DNA of 64,000 nucleotides, taken from assembly GCA_028718375.1 (NCBI GenBank), contig JAQULZ010000001.1, forward strand, positions 5,383 through 69,382. The letters run 5' to 3'. The stretch comes from Victivallaceae bacterium (GTDB taxonomy: Bacteria; Verrucomicrobiota; Lentisphaeria; Victivallales; Victivallaceae). The translations under genes were made by a program, and so were the position numbers. The notes under the pieces are model-generated. The model was not told where the DNA came from and made no database searches. It was given only the letters and a program-made list of their open reading frames with translations. This document shows, one piece after another, positions 36,903 to 39,853 of this stretch (position 1 is the stretch's first letter; each line of letters opens with the position of its first letter).

Positions 36903-37160
36903 ATGACGGATAAAAACCAAGACGATGACAACTATGACCTTCCTCCCGGCATCACCCTGCCCCGGGATATTTCTTCGGATTATCCGAACTGGAAGAAAGG
37001 CCTGATTTACGGTATGGCCTGCGGTGTTTTCGGAGCTTTGGTATTTTCTGTTGCGCCGTTGGGCCGGGGAGTAGAAAAAATCGGGTATGCGGCAGTTGGT
37101 TTCATTGCCGGATTTCTGATGCTCGGGGGCATTATGACGTTCCGGCCGCCGAAAAGTTAG
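36903..37160 (+). CDS. Small (85-aa) two-TM membrane protein, function unknown
   Basis: MTDKNQDDDNYDLPPGI... followed by hydrophobic LIYGMACGVFGALVFSVAPL and IGYAAVGFIAGFLMLGGIMTF. No clear RBS. The longer ORF-track start (36855) lies inside the inverted repeat. Confidence 0.4.
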   Translation: MTDKNQDDDNYDLPPGITLPRDISSDYPNWKKGLIYGMACGVFGALVFSVAPLGRGVEKIGYAAVGFIAGFLMLGGIMTFRPPKS

Positions 37161-37190
37161 AAAAACGGATGAAACGGATGAAACAGACGC

Positions 37191-38606
37191 GTGACGACAG
37201 CGAAAATAATTTTTGACGCAGGTACCTTATTATTGGAAAGCCTGCCCCTGGAAAAATTGCCCGTTCCCTTATTGCGCCACATCAAATATGATGAGCGCGT
37301 TGCATGTCATCGCTGCCTGGCTTATCATTACGCGCCGCTGATCCTGGCGCTGCGTGCCGCTCAGGCCGCTTATCACGATACGGCAAAAAACTTCTCACCG
37401 CTCAAACTTCGCCTCAGCTCCGAATTCACTCCGCGGCCGCATCAGCGCCAGGCATTGGAGCGCTGGAAAGCCTCCCGATGCCGCGCGGTAACCGCGTTGC
37501 CGACCGGTTCCGGAAAAACTTTTCTGGCGGTACAGGCGATCAACTTTTTACAGCGGCCGACGCTGATTACAGTACCGACCATCGATCTGCTCCAGCAATG
37601 GGCGAGCGTCCTGGAACGGTCTTTCAAGACCGGGATCGGTATGCTGGGCGGCGGGACGCGCGAAATCCGGGAAATTACCGTGACCACCTATGATTCGGCG
37701 GTGTTGAACATGGAATTTATCGGCGACCGTTTTGCGCTGCTGGTTTTTGACGAATGCCACCACCTGCCCGGGCCGGTGAACCGTACCGCCGCTTCGATGT
37801 CCCTGGCCCCTTACCGGCTGGGACTGACCGCCACCCCGGAACTCGACGATGAAAATGAACGGATCATGACTGAACTGATCGGCCCGCTGTGCTGTCAAAT
37901 CCATATCGATGAACTGGAAGGCGAAATCCTGGCACCTTACGAAACCCGGCAGTTGCGCGTTGACCTGGATGCGGATGAGGCCGCGGCATATACCTCCAGC
38001 CGGCAGATTTATCTGGATTTCGTCAAACGCAACGGGATCAATTTTCAATCCCGGGACGGCTGGGCGCAGTTTCTGGGGCGCTGCGCGCGGCAGCCGGACG
38101 GCCGGCAGGCGTTCAACGCGTTTCTGGAACAGAGGCGCATCGCCCGCAGCGGCCGCGCTAAAATCCGCCGGGTCTGGGAATTGATCACGGCGCATCGAGG
38201 AGGACGGATAATAATTTTCACCGCCGACAATAAAACCGCCTATCTGCTGGGGCGCACCTTTTTGCTGCCGGTACTGACCCATCATACCAAAGTGGCGGAG
38301 CGCAAGGAAATGCTCGATTTTTTCCGATCCGGCAGATACCCGGTGCTGATCACCAGCAAAGTGCTCAATGAAGGCGTTGACGTCCCCGAAGCCGACATCG
38401 GCATCATTGTTTCCGGCAGCGGCAGCATTCGCGAACATGTCCAGCGGCTGGGACGGATTCTGCGCGCCGGGAAGGGCAAACGGGCTATCCTGTATGAACT
38501 GATCAGCGCCGGGACTTCCGAGGAACAGGTCAGCAAACGCCGCCGCGACCATCGCGCCTATCAGAAACCGGGATTCCGCTGGTTCAGGAGAAAATCCGGA
38601 TGCTGA
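37191..38606 (+). CDS. XPB/Ssl2-like superfamily-2 DNA helicase
   Basis: N-terminal IIFDAGTLLLESLP block like the XPB damage-recognition-type domain. Motif I LPTGSGKTFLA, II LLVFDECHHLP, III LGLTATPE, VI REHVQRLGRILR. GTG start at 37191. Confidence 0.8.
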   Translation: MTTAKIIFDAGTLLLESLPLEKLPVPLLRHIKYDERVACHRCLAYHYAPLILALRAAQAAYHDTAKNFSPLKLRLSSEFTPRPHQRQALERWKASRCRAVTALPTGSGKTFLAVQAINFLQRPTLITVPTIDLLQQWASVLERSFKTGIGMLGGGTREIREITVTTYDSAVLNMEFIGDRFALLVFDECHHLPGPVNRTAASMSLAPYRLGLTATPELDDENERIMTELIGPLCCQIHIDELEGEILAPYETRQLRVDLDADEAAAYTSSRQIYLDFVKRNGINFQSRDGWAQFLGRCARQPDGRQAFNAFLEQRRIARSGRAKIRRVWELITAHRGGRIIIFTADNKTAYLLGRTFLLPVLTHHTKVAERKEMLDFFRSGRYPVLITSKVLNEGVDVPEADIGIIVSGSGSIREHVQRLGRILRAGKGKRAILYELISAGTSEEQVSKRRRDHRAYQKPGFRWFRRKSGC

Positions 38607-39853
38607 CCAAAGACCTGCTCAAATTCAGCCGCCGCGGCAAATACCTTCGTCCCGGATTCATCGCCGCCAGTGATCCCGCATTGCTGCAACTGGCCGAAAA
38701 CCTGCTGACCGTCTACCGGGATCAGGAGGAGGGGAAATATTTAAGCCGGGGGGAAATCGACGAACTTCTCGAACCGGTGCTGAAATCCAATAAAGACCTG
38801 AAACTGGCGCGGGGGCTCAATAAGCTGATTGCCGACCGGTGCGAATTCGCCCAGGCGGGAAAGTTCGATTATCCGGCGCGCCGCCGGGAAATTTTCCTTA
38901 AAGCGGCGGAATTATTGCCGCAGACTTCCGGCGATCATGAACAGTTCCGGCAGCTTTTGATTCAGGATGCGGATTGCGGAGCTTTTGCCCGGCAGGATAT
39001 TTTCGCGGATTTGCCGGAAAACGAAACCCTGGTAAAATACCGGCCGCTGTTTCCCCGCGAACTGCTGGAACGTTACAACTGCGCCCAGGTACAAGGGCTG
39101 CTGTTGAATGCCGCGGAATTGGAAGTCAAGGTTGCCGCGGGGGATTCGGCGGCCCTGCGGCGGCTGTTCAAATATCTCAAATTTTTCCGGCTGCTCGCCG
39201 AAATCACCCGGCAAAAAAGTCCCGCCGGAGAAAGTATGCTGTTGAAAATCAGCGGCCCGGCCAGCCTGTTCGAGAACAGCCGCAAATACGGCCTCCAACT
39301 GGCGGCGTTCTTTCCGGCCGTCTGCGCCCTGGAAGAGTGGCAACTGAAAGCCGACCTCAAACTGAACGGTAAAGTTTACCGGCTGAAGCTGGATGACAGT
39401 AGCGGCTTAGTGTCGCATTACCGCAATTTCAGCGCCTACATTCCGGAAGAAATCCGCCTGTTTCACCGGCTGTTCAAACAAAAAGTGGACGATTGGCAGA
39501 TCAGCGGCGATACGCCTTTTATCCGGGACACCGGTCCGGAAATCATTTTTCCCGATTTCAATTTCCGCAATCGGCATAATGCCGTCATGTATTTGGAACT
39601 GTTTCACCGCTGGCATCGCGGCGCCCTGCTCCGGCGGCTCGAGTTCTGCGCCGCCAACCCGGAACTGCCGCTGCTGCTGGGAGTAGACCGGGCACTGCTC
39701 AACAGCGGCCTGGCTGAACAGCTCGAAACCAGCGTTTACTTCCGCCAAAAAGGTTTTTTGTTCCGGGATTTTCCCGGAGTCGGAAAAGTGCACCAGTTGT
39801 TAAAGGAAAACCAAAGCAGCATTCATACCGATTTGCAATCTAAGAGCAAGTAA
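38600..39853 (+). CDS. DUF790 (Bax1-like) endonuclease family protein
   Basis: The N-terminus MLTKDLLKFSRRGKYLRPGFI resembles DUF790 N-termini. C-terminal IIFPDFNFRN...VMYLELFHRWHRG is a PD-(D/E)xK-like block. 7-nt overlap with the helicase gene. The last codons (TDLQSKSK) come from repeat copy B. Confidence 0.7.
   Translation: MLTKDLLKFSRRGKYLRPGFIAASDPALLQLAENLLTVYRDQEEGKYLSRGEIDELLEPVLKSNKDLKLARGLNKLIADRCEFAQAGKFDYPARRREIFLKAAELLPQTSGDHEQFRQLLIQDADCGAFARQDIFADLPENETLVKYRPLFPRELLERYNCAQVQGLLLNAAELEVKVAAGDSAALRRLFKYLKFFRLLAEITRQKSPAGESMLLKISGPASLFENSRKYGLQLAAFFPAVCALEEWQLKADLKLNGKVYRLKLDDSSGLVSHYRNFSAYIPEEIRLFHRLFKQKVDDWQISGDTPFIRDTGPEIIFPDFNFRNRHNAVMYLELFHRWHRGALLRRLEFCAANPELPLLLGVDRALLNSGLAEQLETSVYFRQKGFLFRDFPGVGKVHQLLKENQSSIHTDLQSKSK
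39825..39847 (+). repeat. 23-nt repeat, copy B, 3' end of the DUF790 gene
   Basis: Identical to 36789-36811 and read in the same frame. Confidence 0.9.

What the first reader, a model, noticed from the sequence alone, without database searches (positions are those of the whole stretch)
36903..39853. Small 2-TM protein + XPB-like helicase + DUF790/Bax1-like nuclease cassette in a mobile-looking context
Seen: 37191-38606 encodes an SF2 helicase (PTGSGKT, DECH, TATP, QRLGRILR) with an XPB-type N-terminal block. 38600-39853 overlaps it by 7 nt and has a DUF790-like N-terminus plus a C-terminal PD-(D/E)xK-like FPDF...YLELF block. An 85-aa two-TM ORF precedes them. Established: in archaea, XPB pairs with the DUF790 nuclease Bax1 as a helicase-nuclease machine. 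As far as I know, the role of bacterial XPB/DUF790 pairs is not settled. Inference: this pair does not look like core repair. A UvrABC-type uvrC is present at 1657. The cassette is wedged between ilvH and a glycosyltransferase gene, bracketed by 23-nt repeats and followed by a MITE. That context suggests a horizontally acquired helicase-nuclease module, a candidate anti-mobile-element defence or DNA-processing system, possibly membrane-tethered through the small protein. The eukaryal/archaeal RED motif after motif III is not visible (TATPELDDENE).
Basis: partly seen in the sequence, partly recalled or inferred. Interest (0 to 1): 0.7.

Follow-up and report, generated by a model that had tools for sequence, protein, structure and literature searches.

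The report
Conserved bacterial XPB–Bax1 helicase-nuclease operon
This is an archaeal-type XPB helicase and Bax1 nuclease gene pair, preceded by a tiny membrane-protein gene, that is an old, vertically inherited chromosomal fixture of Lentisphaerota bacteria rather than a recently imported defence island, and the repeats around it are the ends of two small transposon relics.

Summary
All three genes are real. They are an 85-aa two-helix membrane protein, an XPB helicase of the archaeal type (DRD, both motor domains and a full thumb motif) and a Bax1/DUF790 nuclease with an intact acidic active site and a Bax1 fold. The "horizontally acquired, mobile, defence" reading is not supported. The block ilvH–small–XPB–DUF790 recurs in the same order in 21 of the first 84 loci examined, and three of five loci fetched later carry it too. 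The cassette co-diverges with ilvH, its composition matches the host genome, and its immediate neighbours are housekeeping genes. The 23-nt "bracketing repeats" are the left ends of two MITE-like elements with 3-bp TNA target duplications. One element sits exactly on the ancestral ilvH stop codon, and relatives carry the cassette without these elements. One close relative lacks XPB–DUF790 and has a copy of the same element at the junction, which fits secondary loss. The best reading is a housekeeping helicase–nuclease machine that processes bubble or fork DNA, working like archaeal XPB–Bax1. Two features are new: a tightly coupled membrane-protein partner in roughly half of the phylum's loci, and loss of the RED-motif arginine in this subclade. 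Interest is moderate.

The parts
36296..36814 (+). ilvH-like gene (ACT domain plus ALS_ss_C). It is the conserved upstream neighbour and not part of the enzyme system. Its last 8 codons (YTDLQSKS) are encoded by the inserted element.
   Evidence: Pfam. The alignment with relatives, whose proteins end at ...EEF, is.
36787..36887 (.). MITE-like hairpin element, copy 1. The element is 36790-36884 (95 nt), with terminal inverted repeats TACCGATTTGCAATCTAAGAGC / GCTCTTAGATGCAATTCGGTA. It is flanked by a TTA duplication (36787-36789 and 36885-36887).
   Evidence: The RNA fold gives -47 kcal/mol, z -5.6. The element is absent from relatives, and removing it with one TTA restores the ancestral TAA stop of ilvH and the 14-nt spacer. 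The same family is present in L090.
36903..37160 (+). Small membrane protein of 85 aa. It has an unstructured but conserved N-terminal tail (Y-D/E-L-P-x-G-I-x-L-P...D-Y-P-N-W-K-K-G), a two-helix hairpin and a C-terminal A-F-R-P motif.
   Evidence: Alignments; AF2. Only 32 relatives were found in 5.8 billion proteins. It lies upstream of XPB in 30 of 58 loci, usually within -16 to +24 nt of the XPB start.
37191..38606 (+). Archaeal-type XPB helicase (DRD, HD1, thumb motif, HD2). Motifs I, II (DECHH) and VI are intact. The RED position reads L218-D219-D220. The thumb-motif equivalents are R271, W291 and F311.
   Evidence: Pfam; PDB sequence alignments; motif conservation in 59 homologues; residue definitions from PMC7672443.
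38600..39853 (+). Bax1/DUF790 nuclease. The N-terminal site is D137-L-P-E-N-E142. The nuclease-domain acidic residues are E283/E284, D319 and E333. The last ~10 codons (IHTDLQSKSK) come from the second inserted element.
   Evidence: Pfam and NCBIfam; alignments; PDB profile search; AF2 and Foldseek; AfBax1 catalytic residues from PMC7293015.
39823..40136 (.). MITE-like element, copy 2. The element is 39826-40133 (308 nt). Its left end is identical to that of copy 1 (28/30 over 39822-39851). Its right end is degenerate (GCGAATTGGTA). It is flanked by TCA (39823-39825 and 40134-40136).
   Evidence: Repeat detection. No right arm was found by plain alignment. A right end with at least 9/11 matches plus the matching TCA occurs in 0.2% of random regions, and the ends pair in the fold.

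Best explanation
This is a chromosomal, vertically inherited XPB-Bax1 helicase-nuclease operon of the archaeal type. It is a long-standing part of Lentisphaerota genomes.

The proposed mechanism is inferred by homology to the solved S. tokodaii and A. fulgidus complexes. XPB and Bax1 are made from overlapping genes and form a heterodimer. XPB binds distorted, bubble or forked DNA between its two motor domains. It uses ATP to move along the duplex and drives its thumb motif (W291 as the wedge) between the strands. Bax1 docks on XPB through its N-terminal domain, holds the other strand, and cuts it near the junction with the metal site formed by E283/E284, D319 and E333. The outcome is incision or processing of bubble or fork structures for DNA repair or replication restart, alongside the canonical UvrABC system.

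The upstream 85-aa protein is co-transcribed in roughly half of the phylum's loci. It most likely anchors or modulates the complex at the membrane through its conserved cytoplasmic tail; this step is inference only.

The repeats flanking the cassette are the left ends of two MITE-like insertions. They have nothing to do with how the cassette arrived.
For: Identity:
- The Pfam, PDB and Foldseek assignments are strong.
- Helicase motifs I, II and VI are invariant in 59 homologues.
- The thumb motif aligns without gaps and its key residues are kept in character.
- The Bax1 acidic residues are invariant or near-invariant in 53 sequences.

Operon structure: XPB and DUF790 overlap by 7 nt here and overlap in most loci, and the small gene is packed tightly against XPB.

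Vertical inheritance and core position:
- The nearest DUF790 relatives are all Victivallales or Lentisphaerota.
- 231 species-representative genomes encode a relative, including V. vadensis DSM 14823 and O. ethanolica DSM 24202.
- ilvH-small-XPB-DUF790 synteny is found in 21 of the first 84 loci examined (18 of them among the 80 species-representative genomes). L091, L092 and L094, fetched later, carry it too; L093 runs off its contig within the ORF after XPB.
- The cassette co-diverges with IlvH (rho 0.78 and 0.84), and XPB is about as conserved as IlvH.
- GC, GC3 and codon usage are native.
- The neighbours are housekeeping genes with no PADLOC hits.

Repeats as MITE ends:
- They are absent in relatives.
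- Copy 1 sits precisely on the ilvH stop codon with a TTA duplication.
- A copy of the same family with a TAA duplication occurs in L090.
- Copy 2 has a TCA duplication.
Against: - No in-vivo role is established even for archaeal XPB-Bax1. XPB deletion in T. kodakarensis gives only slight UV sensitivity (PMC7690668).
- The genome already has uvrC, so a nucleotide-excision role would be redundant.
- The pair is dispensable in at least one close relative (L090), and DUF790 appears frameshifted in another (L091).
- The RED arginine, which contacts junction DNA in StXPB, is leucine here and in 17 of 59 homologues.
- Homologous pairs sit on Deinococcus and haloarchaeal plasmids, next to HNH and transposase genes in one case.
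- The best PADLOC match of the helicase core is PbeA.
- The small protein persists without XPB in L090, and it is absent from about 25 XPB-DUF790 loci.
- Nothing here shows a physical complex or enzymatic activity.
Confidence: 0.6

Rival explanations
1. One reading: the cassette is a horizontally acquired anti-mobile-element defence system. The helicase-nuclease pair recognises and degrades invading DNA, and it may be tethered to the membrane by the small protein.
For: - The helicase-plus-PD-(D/E)xK-nuclease design is common in defence systems.
- The helicase core's best PADLOC hit is PbeA (E 1e-53), and TIGR04095, the dnd-associated restriction enzyme, also hits.
- Homologous pairs are plasmid-borne in Deinococcus and haloarchaea.
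- The pair is lost in L090.
- In relatives, HEPN-type cargo genes are inserted in or beside the operon.
- A 2005 analysis did not exclude a selfish character for this family (PMC1189080).
Against: - Position and order are conserved across the family and much of the phylum.
- The cassette co-diverges with ilvH.
- Its composition is native.
- DUF790 has no PADLOC or PHROG hit, and there is no phage match.
- None of the nine flanking genes is a defence gene.
- DUF790 genes that stand alone also sit among housekeeping genes.
- The similarity to PbeA is confined to the generic helicase core, whereas AfXPB matches end to end at 350 bits.
- No paper links XPB or Bax1 to anti-phage defence.
Confidence: 0.12
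2. The cassette is itself a mobile unit that excises and integrates through the two 23-30-nt direct repeats, which would act as att-like sites at the 3' end of ilvH.
For: - Exact 23-nt direct repeats lie 3036 nt apart and bracket the three genes.
- Recombination between them would remove the cassette and leave ilvH intact.
- L090 lacks XPB-DUF790 and has one copy of the same repeat family at the junction.
Against: - Relatives carry the cassette at the same site with no such repeats.
- The boundaries differ between genomes. The small gene lies inside the repeats here but outside the element in L090.
- Each repeat belongs to an inverted-repeat element with its own 3-bp target duplication (TTA, TCA, TAA), which is the signature of independent transposon insertions.
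- No integrase or recombinase gene is nearby.
Confidence: 0.03
3. The small membrane-protein gene is only a syntenic neighbour, with no functional link to XPB-Bax1. The system would then be the plain two-gene pair.
For: - It is absent from about 25 of 58 XPB-DUF790 loci.
- It is retained next to ilvH in L090, where XPB-DUF790 is gone.
- Unrelated insertions separate it from XPB in L009, L091 and L094.
- In this window a 30-nt gap separates it from XPB.
Against: - It stays immediately upstream of XPB in 8 loci where ilvH is not the upstream gene, including V. vadensis DSM 14823.
- Its stop often overlaps or abuts the XPB start (-1, -4 or -11 nt).
- 14 of 15 loci reached from small-protein homologues have XPB downstream.
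- Its conserved part is a short soluble tail typical of a binding motif.
Confidence: 0.35

Closest known systems
Archaeal XPB-Bax1 helicase-nuclease complex (A. fulgidus 6P66, S. tokodaii 6P4F/6P4O/6P4W; PMC7293015, PMC7672443)
   Same: The XPB domain order is the same (DRD, HD1, thumb motif, HD2) and the alignment runs end to end (E 2e-103). The Bax1 fold matches (Foldseek E ~1e-21). The nuclease acidic residues and the N-terminal acidic site are conserved. The two genes are adjacent and overlapping.
   Different: The host is bacterial and also carries UvrABC. The RED arginine is replaced by leucine in this subclade. Both proteins score far below NCBI's equivalog cut-offs (189 vs 610 bits; 97 vs 500 bits). 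An extra small membrane-protein gene lies upstream. No biochemistry is available.
Mycobacterium tuberculosis XPB (the biochemically studied bacterial XPB; PMC3353954)
   Same: It is a bacterial SF2 helicase of the XPB family with the conserved helicase motifs.
   Different: According to that paper, Mtb XPB has a eukaryote-like N-terminal domain, lacks the thumb motif and keeps RED, and no Bax1 partner had been identified in bacteria. The protein here has the archaeal DRD and a full-length thumb motif, lacks the RED arginine, and is paired with Bax1.
DUF790 plus DEAD/DEAH helicase pairs on Deinococcus and haloarchaeal megaplasmids (RefSeq annotation); COG3372-COG1061 pairs noted in Archaea and Cyanobacteria in 2005 (PMC1189080)
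   Same: The two-gene architecture is the same. DUF790 identity is 26-32% over more than 80% of the length.
   Different: Those pairs are plasmid-borne (40 of 42 plasmids non-mobilizable), and in D. radiophilus the pair sits beside HNH and transposase genes. Here the pair is chromosomal, syntenic and co-diverging with housekeeping genes, and no small TM gene is annotated there.
PbeA and the dnd-associated restriction helicase (PADLOC PDLC02707; TIGR04095)
   Same: The helicase core is an XPB/ERCC3-like SF2 core (E 1e-53 and 7e-34).
   Different: The match is limited to the helicase core (PbeA profile positions 247-638 of 672). No other Pbe or Dnd component is present, and DUF790 is not part of those systems. 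The resemblance is homology of one domain, not membership.
IS5/IS1031-type or Tourist/Harbinger-like MITEs (for the flanking repeats; the comparison is from memory)
   Same: The elements are short and non-coding, with terminal inverted repeats and a 3-bp TNA target duplication (TTA, TCA, TAA). They are inserted in intergenic or stop-codon positions.
   Different: No autonomous parent element or transposase was identified. Only three copies were seen, two in this window and one in a related genome, so copy number and family assignment are untested.

Membership tests
XPB helicase family | SF2 helicase core with motifs I, II (DExH), III and VI | tested here: met
   PTGSGKT, DECHH, TATP and QRLGRILR are present. 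Motifs I, II and VI are invariant in 59 homologues. Pfam gives ResIII, Helicase_C and ERCC3_RAD25_C.
XPB helicase family | [quoted passage not shown] | tested here: met
   Pfam XPB_DRD, residues 8-65, E 1.6e-13, 50.7 bits against a cut-off of 26.
XPB helicase family | RED motif after motif III (R-E/D-D) | tested here: not met
   The aligned position reads L218-D219-D220, against RED in Af and R205-D206-D207 in St. The two acidic residues are kept and the arginine is lost. Across 59 Lentisphaerota XPBs the first position is R in 33, L in 17, C in 6 and S in 3.
XPB helicase family | Thumb (ThM) insertion in HD2 | tested here: met
   The alignment to the StXPB thumb motif (residues 258-299) has no gaps. 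St R258, F278 and W298 correspond to R271, W291 and F311.
XPB helicase family | NCBIfam equivalog NF045503 trusted cut-off | tested here: not met
   189.2 bits against a cut-off of 610. The protein is a divergent member, not an equivalog by NCBI's rule.
Bax1 / DUF790 nuclease | DUF790 profile match over the N-terminal, Cas2-like and nuclease domains | tested here: met
   Pfam PF05626, E 2.7e-67, residues 1-370. The profile matches PDB Bax1 chains at E 6e-24.
Bax1 / DUF790 nuclease | Bax1 three-dimensional fold | tested here: met
   The AF2 model has pLDDT 88.6. The top 8 Foldseek PDB matches are all Bax1, with E 9e-22 to 9e-20 and TM ~0.6 over ~410 columns.
Bax1 / DUF790 nuclease | Three acidic metal-binding residues of the nuclease domain (AfBax1 E275, D305, E318) | tested here: met
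   The equivalents are E283/E284, D319 and E333. They are invariant or near-invariant in 53 sequences.
Bax1 / DUF790 nuclease | Gene adjacent to, and co-oriented with, XPB | tested here: met
   The genes overlap by 7 nt here. XPB lies upstream of DUF790 in most of the 84 loci (65 with an XPB hit, 7 of them cut by the contig end).
Bax1 / DUF790 nuclease | NCBIfam equivalog cut-offs (NF053695, NF053694) | tested here: not met
   97.7 and 96.5 bits against a cut-off of 500.
Bax1 / DUF790 nuclease | Physical heterodimer with XPB and structure-specific nuclease activity | not testable with these tools
   This needs a complex prediction or biochemistry. Only monomer prediction was available.
Anti-phage defence system | Components match a known or candidate defence-system model set | tested here: not met
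   DUF790 and the small protein have no PADLOC hit. The helicase hits PbeA only through its helicase core, and no partner genes are present.
Anti-phage defence system | Location in a defence island or among other defence genes | tested here: not met
   None of the nine flanking genes hits PADLOC. The nearest candidate, PDC-S18, is 13 kb away. The relatives examined show housekeeping neighbours.
Anti-phage defence system | Patchy distribution that does not follow phylogeny | tested here: inconclusive
   The pair is mostly conserved and co-diverges with ilvH. There is one loss (L090), one possible pseudogene (L091) and 15 loci with DUF790 alone. A full species-tree reconciliation was not possible.
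Recently acquired genomic island | Compositional deviation from the host genome | tested here: not met
   GC/GC3/CAI are .579/.672/.69 for XPB and .549/.663/.724 for DUF790. The other 33 genes average .54±.04.635±.05 and .70±.04.
Recently acquired genomic island | Absent from the same site in close relatives; bounded by att repeats with an integrase | tested here: not met
   The cassette is present at the same site in relatives that have no repeats. No integrase is present, and the repeats are ends of MITE-like elements.
MITE (for the flanking repeats) | Short non-coding element with terminal inverted repeats and a target-site duplication | tested here: met
   Copy 1 is 95 nt with 22-nt inverted repeats and TTA/TTA. 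The L090 copy is 61 nt with TAA/TAA. Copy 2 is 308 nt with TCA/TCA.
MITE (for the flanking repeats) | Multi-copy and dispersed in the genome, with a related autonomous transposon | not tested
   Only 64 kb of this genome was available. The metagenome scan gave one unrelated chance hit.

The most novel reading that the evidence does not exclude
In Victivallales the 85-aa two-helix membrane protein would use its conserved cytoplasmic tail to hold an archaeal-type XPB-Bax1 machine at the inner membrane. That would make a three-component system acting on DNA at the cell envelope, for example DNA entering by phage injection, conjugation or type IV pilus-mediated uptake (pilBTC lie 3.2 kb upstream in this synteny block), rather than on chromosomal lesions. 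The loss of the RED arginine in this subclade would then reflect a changed DNA substrate.
Probability: 0.12. Interest if true: 0.7.

Novelty: new variant of a known kind. Interest (0 to 1): 0.35.

Why it matters
The cellular role of XPB–Bax1 is still unsettled even in archaea, where knock-outs show little UV phenotype. Bacterial XPB work has centred on a different, Bax1-less XPB type from mycobacteria. This finding shows that a whole bacterial phylum carries the archaeal-type pair as a conserved chromosomal operon next to a complete UvrABC system. That phylum includes cultured strains such as Victivallis vadensis DSM 14823 and Oligosphaera ethanolica DSM 24202. These organisms therefore offer a setting in which "repair, replication restart or defence?" can be asked genetically. 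The tightly linked small membrane protein and the natural RED-arginine variants provide two ready-made handles for such experiments. There is also a methodological lesson: direct repeats bracketing a cassette looked like island boundaries but turned out to be unrelated MITE ends.

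Tried and rejected
- Metagenome scan for the repeat. 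One scan of metagenome contigs for the 19-mer CCGATTTGCAATCTAAGAG gave a single hit (L089). It is non-coding, eukaryote-like sequence and a chance match, so it gives no information on copy number.
- Right arm of repeat copy 2. Plain local alignment found nothing above the shuffle score. The right end was recovered only by requiring the terminal 11-mer plus a matching 3-bp duplication.
- Fuzzy scan for the inverted repeats. A first scan allowing up to 7 errors produced only noise and timed out. It was repeated with at most 4 errors and shuffled controls.
- Rfam and tRNA scans of the window found nothing. The cassette is therefore not next to a tRNA or any known structured RNA, and the hairpin is not a known RNA family.
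- The promoter and terminator scan of 35500-40500 was not above shuffle expectation, so no operon boundaries were drawn from it.
- The PbeA/dnd helicase similarity was considered as evidence for defence and rejected as shared helicase-core homology.
- An integron attC-like reading of the hairpin was considered and dropped. No integrase is present and I saw no GTTRRRY core sites by eye.
- A correlation between the RED arginine-to-leucine change and the presence of the small protein was tested. There is no strict link: the small gene occurs with both R (12 loci) and L (13 loci).
- The extra ORFs between small and XPB in relatives were tested as a possible fourth component. They are unrelated cargo inside low-GC insertions.

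Full report
**1. What is at the coordinates**

The three ORFs exist as described:
- A small ORF at 36903-37160. It is 85 aa from its ATG, and homologues also begin MTDK.
- A 471-aa ORF at 37191-38606.
- A 417-aa ORF at 38600-39853 that overlaps the previous one by 7 nt.

Pfam places the 471-aa protein in XPB_DRD (residues 8-65), ResIII, Helicase_C and ERCC3_RAD25_C. It places the 417-aa protein in DUF790 (E 2.7e-67, residues 1-370). The small protein has no family.

NCBIfam names the two enzymes XPB and Bax1, but far below its equivalog cut-offs: 189 vs 610 bits, and about 97 vs 500 bits. They are therefore divergent members.

The flanking genes are an ilvH-like gene upstream and a PMT_2 glycosyltransferase on the other strand downstream. 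uvrC at 1657-3126 is confirmed.

**2. The enzymes in detail**

*Helicase.* It aligns over residues 28-453 with A. fulgidus XPB (E 2e-103) and with S. tokodaii XPBII (E 7e-89). Eukaryotic XPBs match only over the C-terminal part.
- The alignment through the thumb motif (StXPB 258-299) has no gaps. St R258, F278 (the wedge) and W298 correspond to R271, W291 and F311.
- At the RED position (St R205-D206-D207; Af R-E-D) this protein has L218-D219-D220.
- In 59 Lentisphaerota XPBs the first RED position is R in 33, L in 17, C in 6 and S in 3. Motifs I, II (DECHH) and VI are invariant.
- R-D/E-D is thus the most common state across the sampled XPBs, and the arginine is absent from this subclade. In StXPB that arginine contacts a phosphate at the junction, and an AAA substitution of RED lowers DNA binding and ATPase activity (PMC7672443).
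- This is a different XPB type from the one studied in M. tuberculosis. That protein has a eukaryote-like N-terminus and lacks the thumb motif, and no Bax1 partner was known for it (PMC3353954).

*Nuclease.* A profile of 13 DUF790 proteins hits the Bax1 chains of 6P4O, 6P4F, 8GY8 and 6P66 (E 6e-24 to 2e-15) over positions 1-375.
- An AF2 model built on 53 sequences has pLDDT 88.6. Its eight best PDB matches are all Bax1 (E ~1e-21, TM ~0.6, ~410 columns).
- The AfBax1 nuclease residues E275, D305 and E318 (PMC7293015) correspond to E283/E284, D319 and E333.
- The N-terminal D133/E135 site corresponds to D137-LPENE142.
- These residues are invariant or nearly so in 53 homologues.

**3. Whose genome, and is this an island?**

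The DUF790 protein is 100% identical to one from a MAG labelled Victivallaceae bacterium. All of its close relatives (45-72% identity) come from Victivallales or Lentisphaerota.

*Synteny.* Context look-ups at 72%, 67% and 58% DUF790 identity show the same order: ilvH, small ORF, XPB, DUF790. Two of these lie on large contigs of 5.1 and 3.2 Mb.
- Upstream synteny (pilB-pilT-pilC-manC-coaX-trpF) is kept in the two closer relatives.
- The downstream gene varies.

*Species survey.* A scan of species-representative genomes found 231 genomes with a relative. The best 80 are almost all Lentisphaerota, including Victivallis vadensis DSM 14823 and Oligosphaera ethanolica DSM 24202. Local HMM annotation of the 84 loci then held gave the following:
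- XPB lies directly upstream of DUF790 in most loci.
- ilvH-small-XPB-DUF790 occurs in 21 loci, 18 of them among the 80 species representatives.
- small-XPB occurs without ilvH in 8 loci.
- ilvH-XPB occurs without the small gene in 1 locus.
- 15 loci with enough upstream sequence have DUF790 without an adjacent XPB.

The three DUF790-only loci I inspected sit among housekeeping genes: inositol monophosphatase, sulfatase, gltX, and rpsB/tsf.

*Co-divergence.* Identity to this window's proteins co-varies across 17 loci. Spearman rho is 0.78 for IlvH against XPB and 0.84 for IlvH against DUF790. XPB (about 81% in the nearest relatives) is about as conserved as IlvH (82-87%).

*Composition and neighbours.* GC, GC3 and codon adaptation of XPB and DUF790 fall within one standard deviation of the other 33 genes in the window. 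None of nine flanking genes hits a PADLOC model. DUF790 and the small protein have no PADLOC or PHROG hit, and DUF790 has no match in 50,697 phage records.

The cassette therefore has no island signature and sits at a conserved chromosomal position.

**4. The repeats**

The 23-nt repeat is exact at 36789-36811 and 39825-39847, with none expected by chance. The similarity extends to 28/30 nt. It is absent from the relatives' loci.

*Copy 1.*
- It is the left arm of a 95-nt hairpin at 36790-36884, with right arm GCTCTTAGATGCAATTCGGTA. The fold is -47 kcal/mol with z -5.6.
- Aligned with relatives, this hairpin is an insertion exactly on the ancestral ilvH stop codon.
- It is flanked by TTA on both sides. 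Removing the element and one TTA restores ...GAATTT-TAA followed by a 14-nt spacer before the small gene, as in L001 and L002.
- As a result IlvH is 8 residues longer here than in its two nearest relatives, L001 and L002.

*Copy 2.*
- It begins where the relatives' DUF790 proteins end.
- Plain alignment found no right arm.
- A degenerate right end, GCGAATTGGTA, followed by TCA at 40123-40136 matches a TCA at 39823-39825. A site that good occurs in 0.2% of random regions, and the ends pair in the fold.
- This defines a 308-nt element at 39826-40133.

*Third copy.* It came from a relative. In L090 a 61-nt hairpin has arms 3 and 4 mismatches from the window's repeat and is flanked by TAA/TAA. In 1.14 Mb of related loci the repeat occurs only in the window and in L090, while shuffled controls give 0-2 hits.

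Three copies, each with its own TNA duplication, are the mark of a MITE-like transposon relic. From memory, 3-bp TNA duplications are typical of IS5/IS1031-type and Tourist/Harbinger-type elements. The "bracketing repeats" are thus the left ends of two independent insertions, not the cassette's boundaries.

**5. A loss, and an insertion-prone neighbourhood**

L090 was reached from a small-protein homologue. It has pilC-manC-coaX-trpF-ilvH-small but no XPB or DUF790, and tblastn finds no remnant. The MITE copy lies at that junction and a prepilin-type gene follows. Its IlvH is 85% identical to the window's, so it is as close as the relatives that do carry the pair. Parsimony therefore favours secondary loss.

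In L091, DUF790 is split into two frames near residue 320. This is either a pseudogene or an assembly error.

In L091, L009, L094 and L007 the gap between small and XPB holds low-GC insertions. They are bounded by other repeat families and carry unrelated cargo, including a Polβ-NTase/HEPN gene in L009.

The pair is therefore conserved but not indispensable, and the intergenic gaps of this operon attract small mobile elements in several genomes.

**6. The small protein**

It has only 32 relatives in 5.8 billion proteins. The locus-level HMM also detects weaker copies in Victivallis.

Conservation is concentrated in the N-terminal tail (Y-E/D-L-P-x-G-I-x-L-P...D-Y-P-N-W-K-K-G) and in the C-terminal A-F-R-P. 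The two hydrophobic helices vary. AF2 predicts helices at 30-50 and 58-80 with pLDDT ~95 and an unstructured tail.

Linkage to XPB:
- The small gene's stop lies within -16 to +24 nt of the XPB start in most loci and often overlaps it.
- 14 of 15 loci reached from small-protein homologues have XPB next.
- It stays with XPB where ilvH is not upstream.
- Against a strict link, about 25 XPB-DUF790 loci lack it, and L090 keeps it without XPB.

A role as a membrane anchor or modulator is plausible but remains inference.

**7. What it most likely does**

By homology to the solved complexes, XPB grips a duplex/single-strand junction and uses ATP to advance, driving the thumb wedge between the strands. 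Bax1, docked by its N-terminal domain, holds and cuts the other strand (PMC7293015, PMC7672443).

What is shown here:
- the domains, catalytic residues and fold;
- the gene coupling;
- long-term purifying selection;
- a housekeeping genomic setting.

What is inferred: the complex itself, its substrates and its cellular role.

I favour a housekeeping DNA-structure-processing or repair role (confidence 0.6). Defence is not excluded (0.12). Helicase-nuclease pairs are common in defence systems, the helicase core resembles PbeA, and related pairs are plasmid-borne in Deinococcus and haloarchaea, beside HNH and transposase genes in D. radiophilus. The in-vivo role is also unsettled in archaea (PMC7690668).

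**8. Novelty**

The DUF790-SF2 helicase association was noted in 2005 for Archaea and Cyanobacteria, with the comment that a selfish character was not excluded (PMC1189080). RefSeq annotates such pairs in Deinococcus. I found no paper on the pair in Lentisphaerota or on any defence role.

The new elements are:
- phylum-wide, syntenic conservation of the archaeal-type pair in bacteria;
- the coupled small membrane protein;
- the natural loss of the RED arginine.

I rate it a new variant of a known kind, with interest 0.35.

Noticed in passing
window 22627-23613 (+): A 328-aa gene has the lowest GC (0.40), GC3 (0.44) and nearly the lowest codon adaptation in the window. It matches Pfam DUF5655 and the PADLOC candidate defence family PDC-S18 (E 1e-141). 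It looks like a compositionally foreign single-gene islet, 13 kb upstream of the cassette.
   Followed up: partly
window 50214-51116 (-): A 300-aa ORF has low GC (0.48), the lowest codon adaptation in the window (0.57) and no Pfam hit.
   Followed up: no
L090 5001-5530 (JGI Ga0376487_000103): A close relative keeps ilvH and the small gene but lacks XPB-DUF790. A 61-nt copy of the window's repeat family, flanked by TAA/TAA, sits at the junction, followed by AT-rich sequence and a prepilin-type gene.
   Followed up: partly
L091 4004-4503; L009 4477-5585; L094 1393-1823; L007 5446-5585: In several relatives the gap between the small gene and XPB holds low-GC insertions (GC 0.27-0.39). They are bounded by other repeat families: GAATATCCAA-type inverted repeats and GC-rich REP-like hairpins. 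They carry unrelated cargo: a 130-aa multi-TM ORF, a Polβ-NTase/HEPN protein, and a DUF6968-like ORF. The operon's intergenic gaps look like a recurrent landing site.
   Followed up: partly
L091 5910-7158: DUF790 is split into two reading frames near residue 320 (331 + 89 aa). This is either a pseudogene or a metagenome assembly error.
   Followed up: no
L018, L020, L022, L023, L025, L028, L032, L033, L038, L044, L050, L051, L057, L061, L070: Fifteen Lentisphaerota loci have DUF790 with no adjacent XPB, and the three inspected sit among housekeeping genes. In L078 XPB and DUF790 are 5 kb apart. I could not tell whether these are paralogues or split pairs.
   Followed up: partly
window 36296-36814 and relatives: The ilvH-like gene (acetolactate synthase small subunit, ACT domain) has no ilvB-like large-subunit gene beside it in the loci with annotated upstream genes. 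It is followed within ~14 nt by the small gene in relatives. This is an unusual, conserved pairing of a metabolic regulatory subunit with a DNA helicase-nuclease operon.
   Followed up: no
window 40308-40342: A perfect 16-nt AT-rich palindrome (TTCAAAAACAAAAAAA / TTTTTTTGTTTTTGAA) lies just beyond the 3' end of the PMT_2 gene. It may be a bidirectional terminator.
   Followed up: no
L074 (Candidatus Anammoxibacter MAG); L055, L079, L080 (MAGs labelled Verrucomicrobia): A few XPB-DUF790 loci of the Lentisphaerota type occur in MAGs labelled as other PVC phyla. This could be mislabelling, mis-binning or lateral transfer within the superphylum.
   Followed up: no
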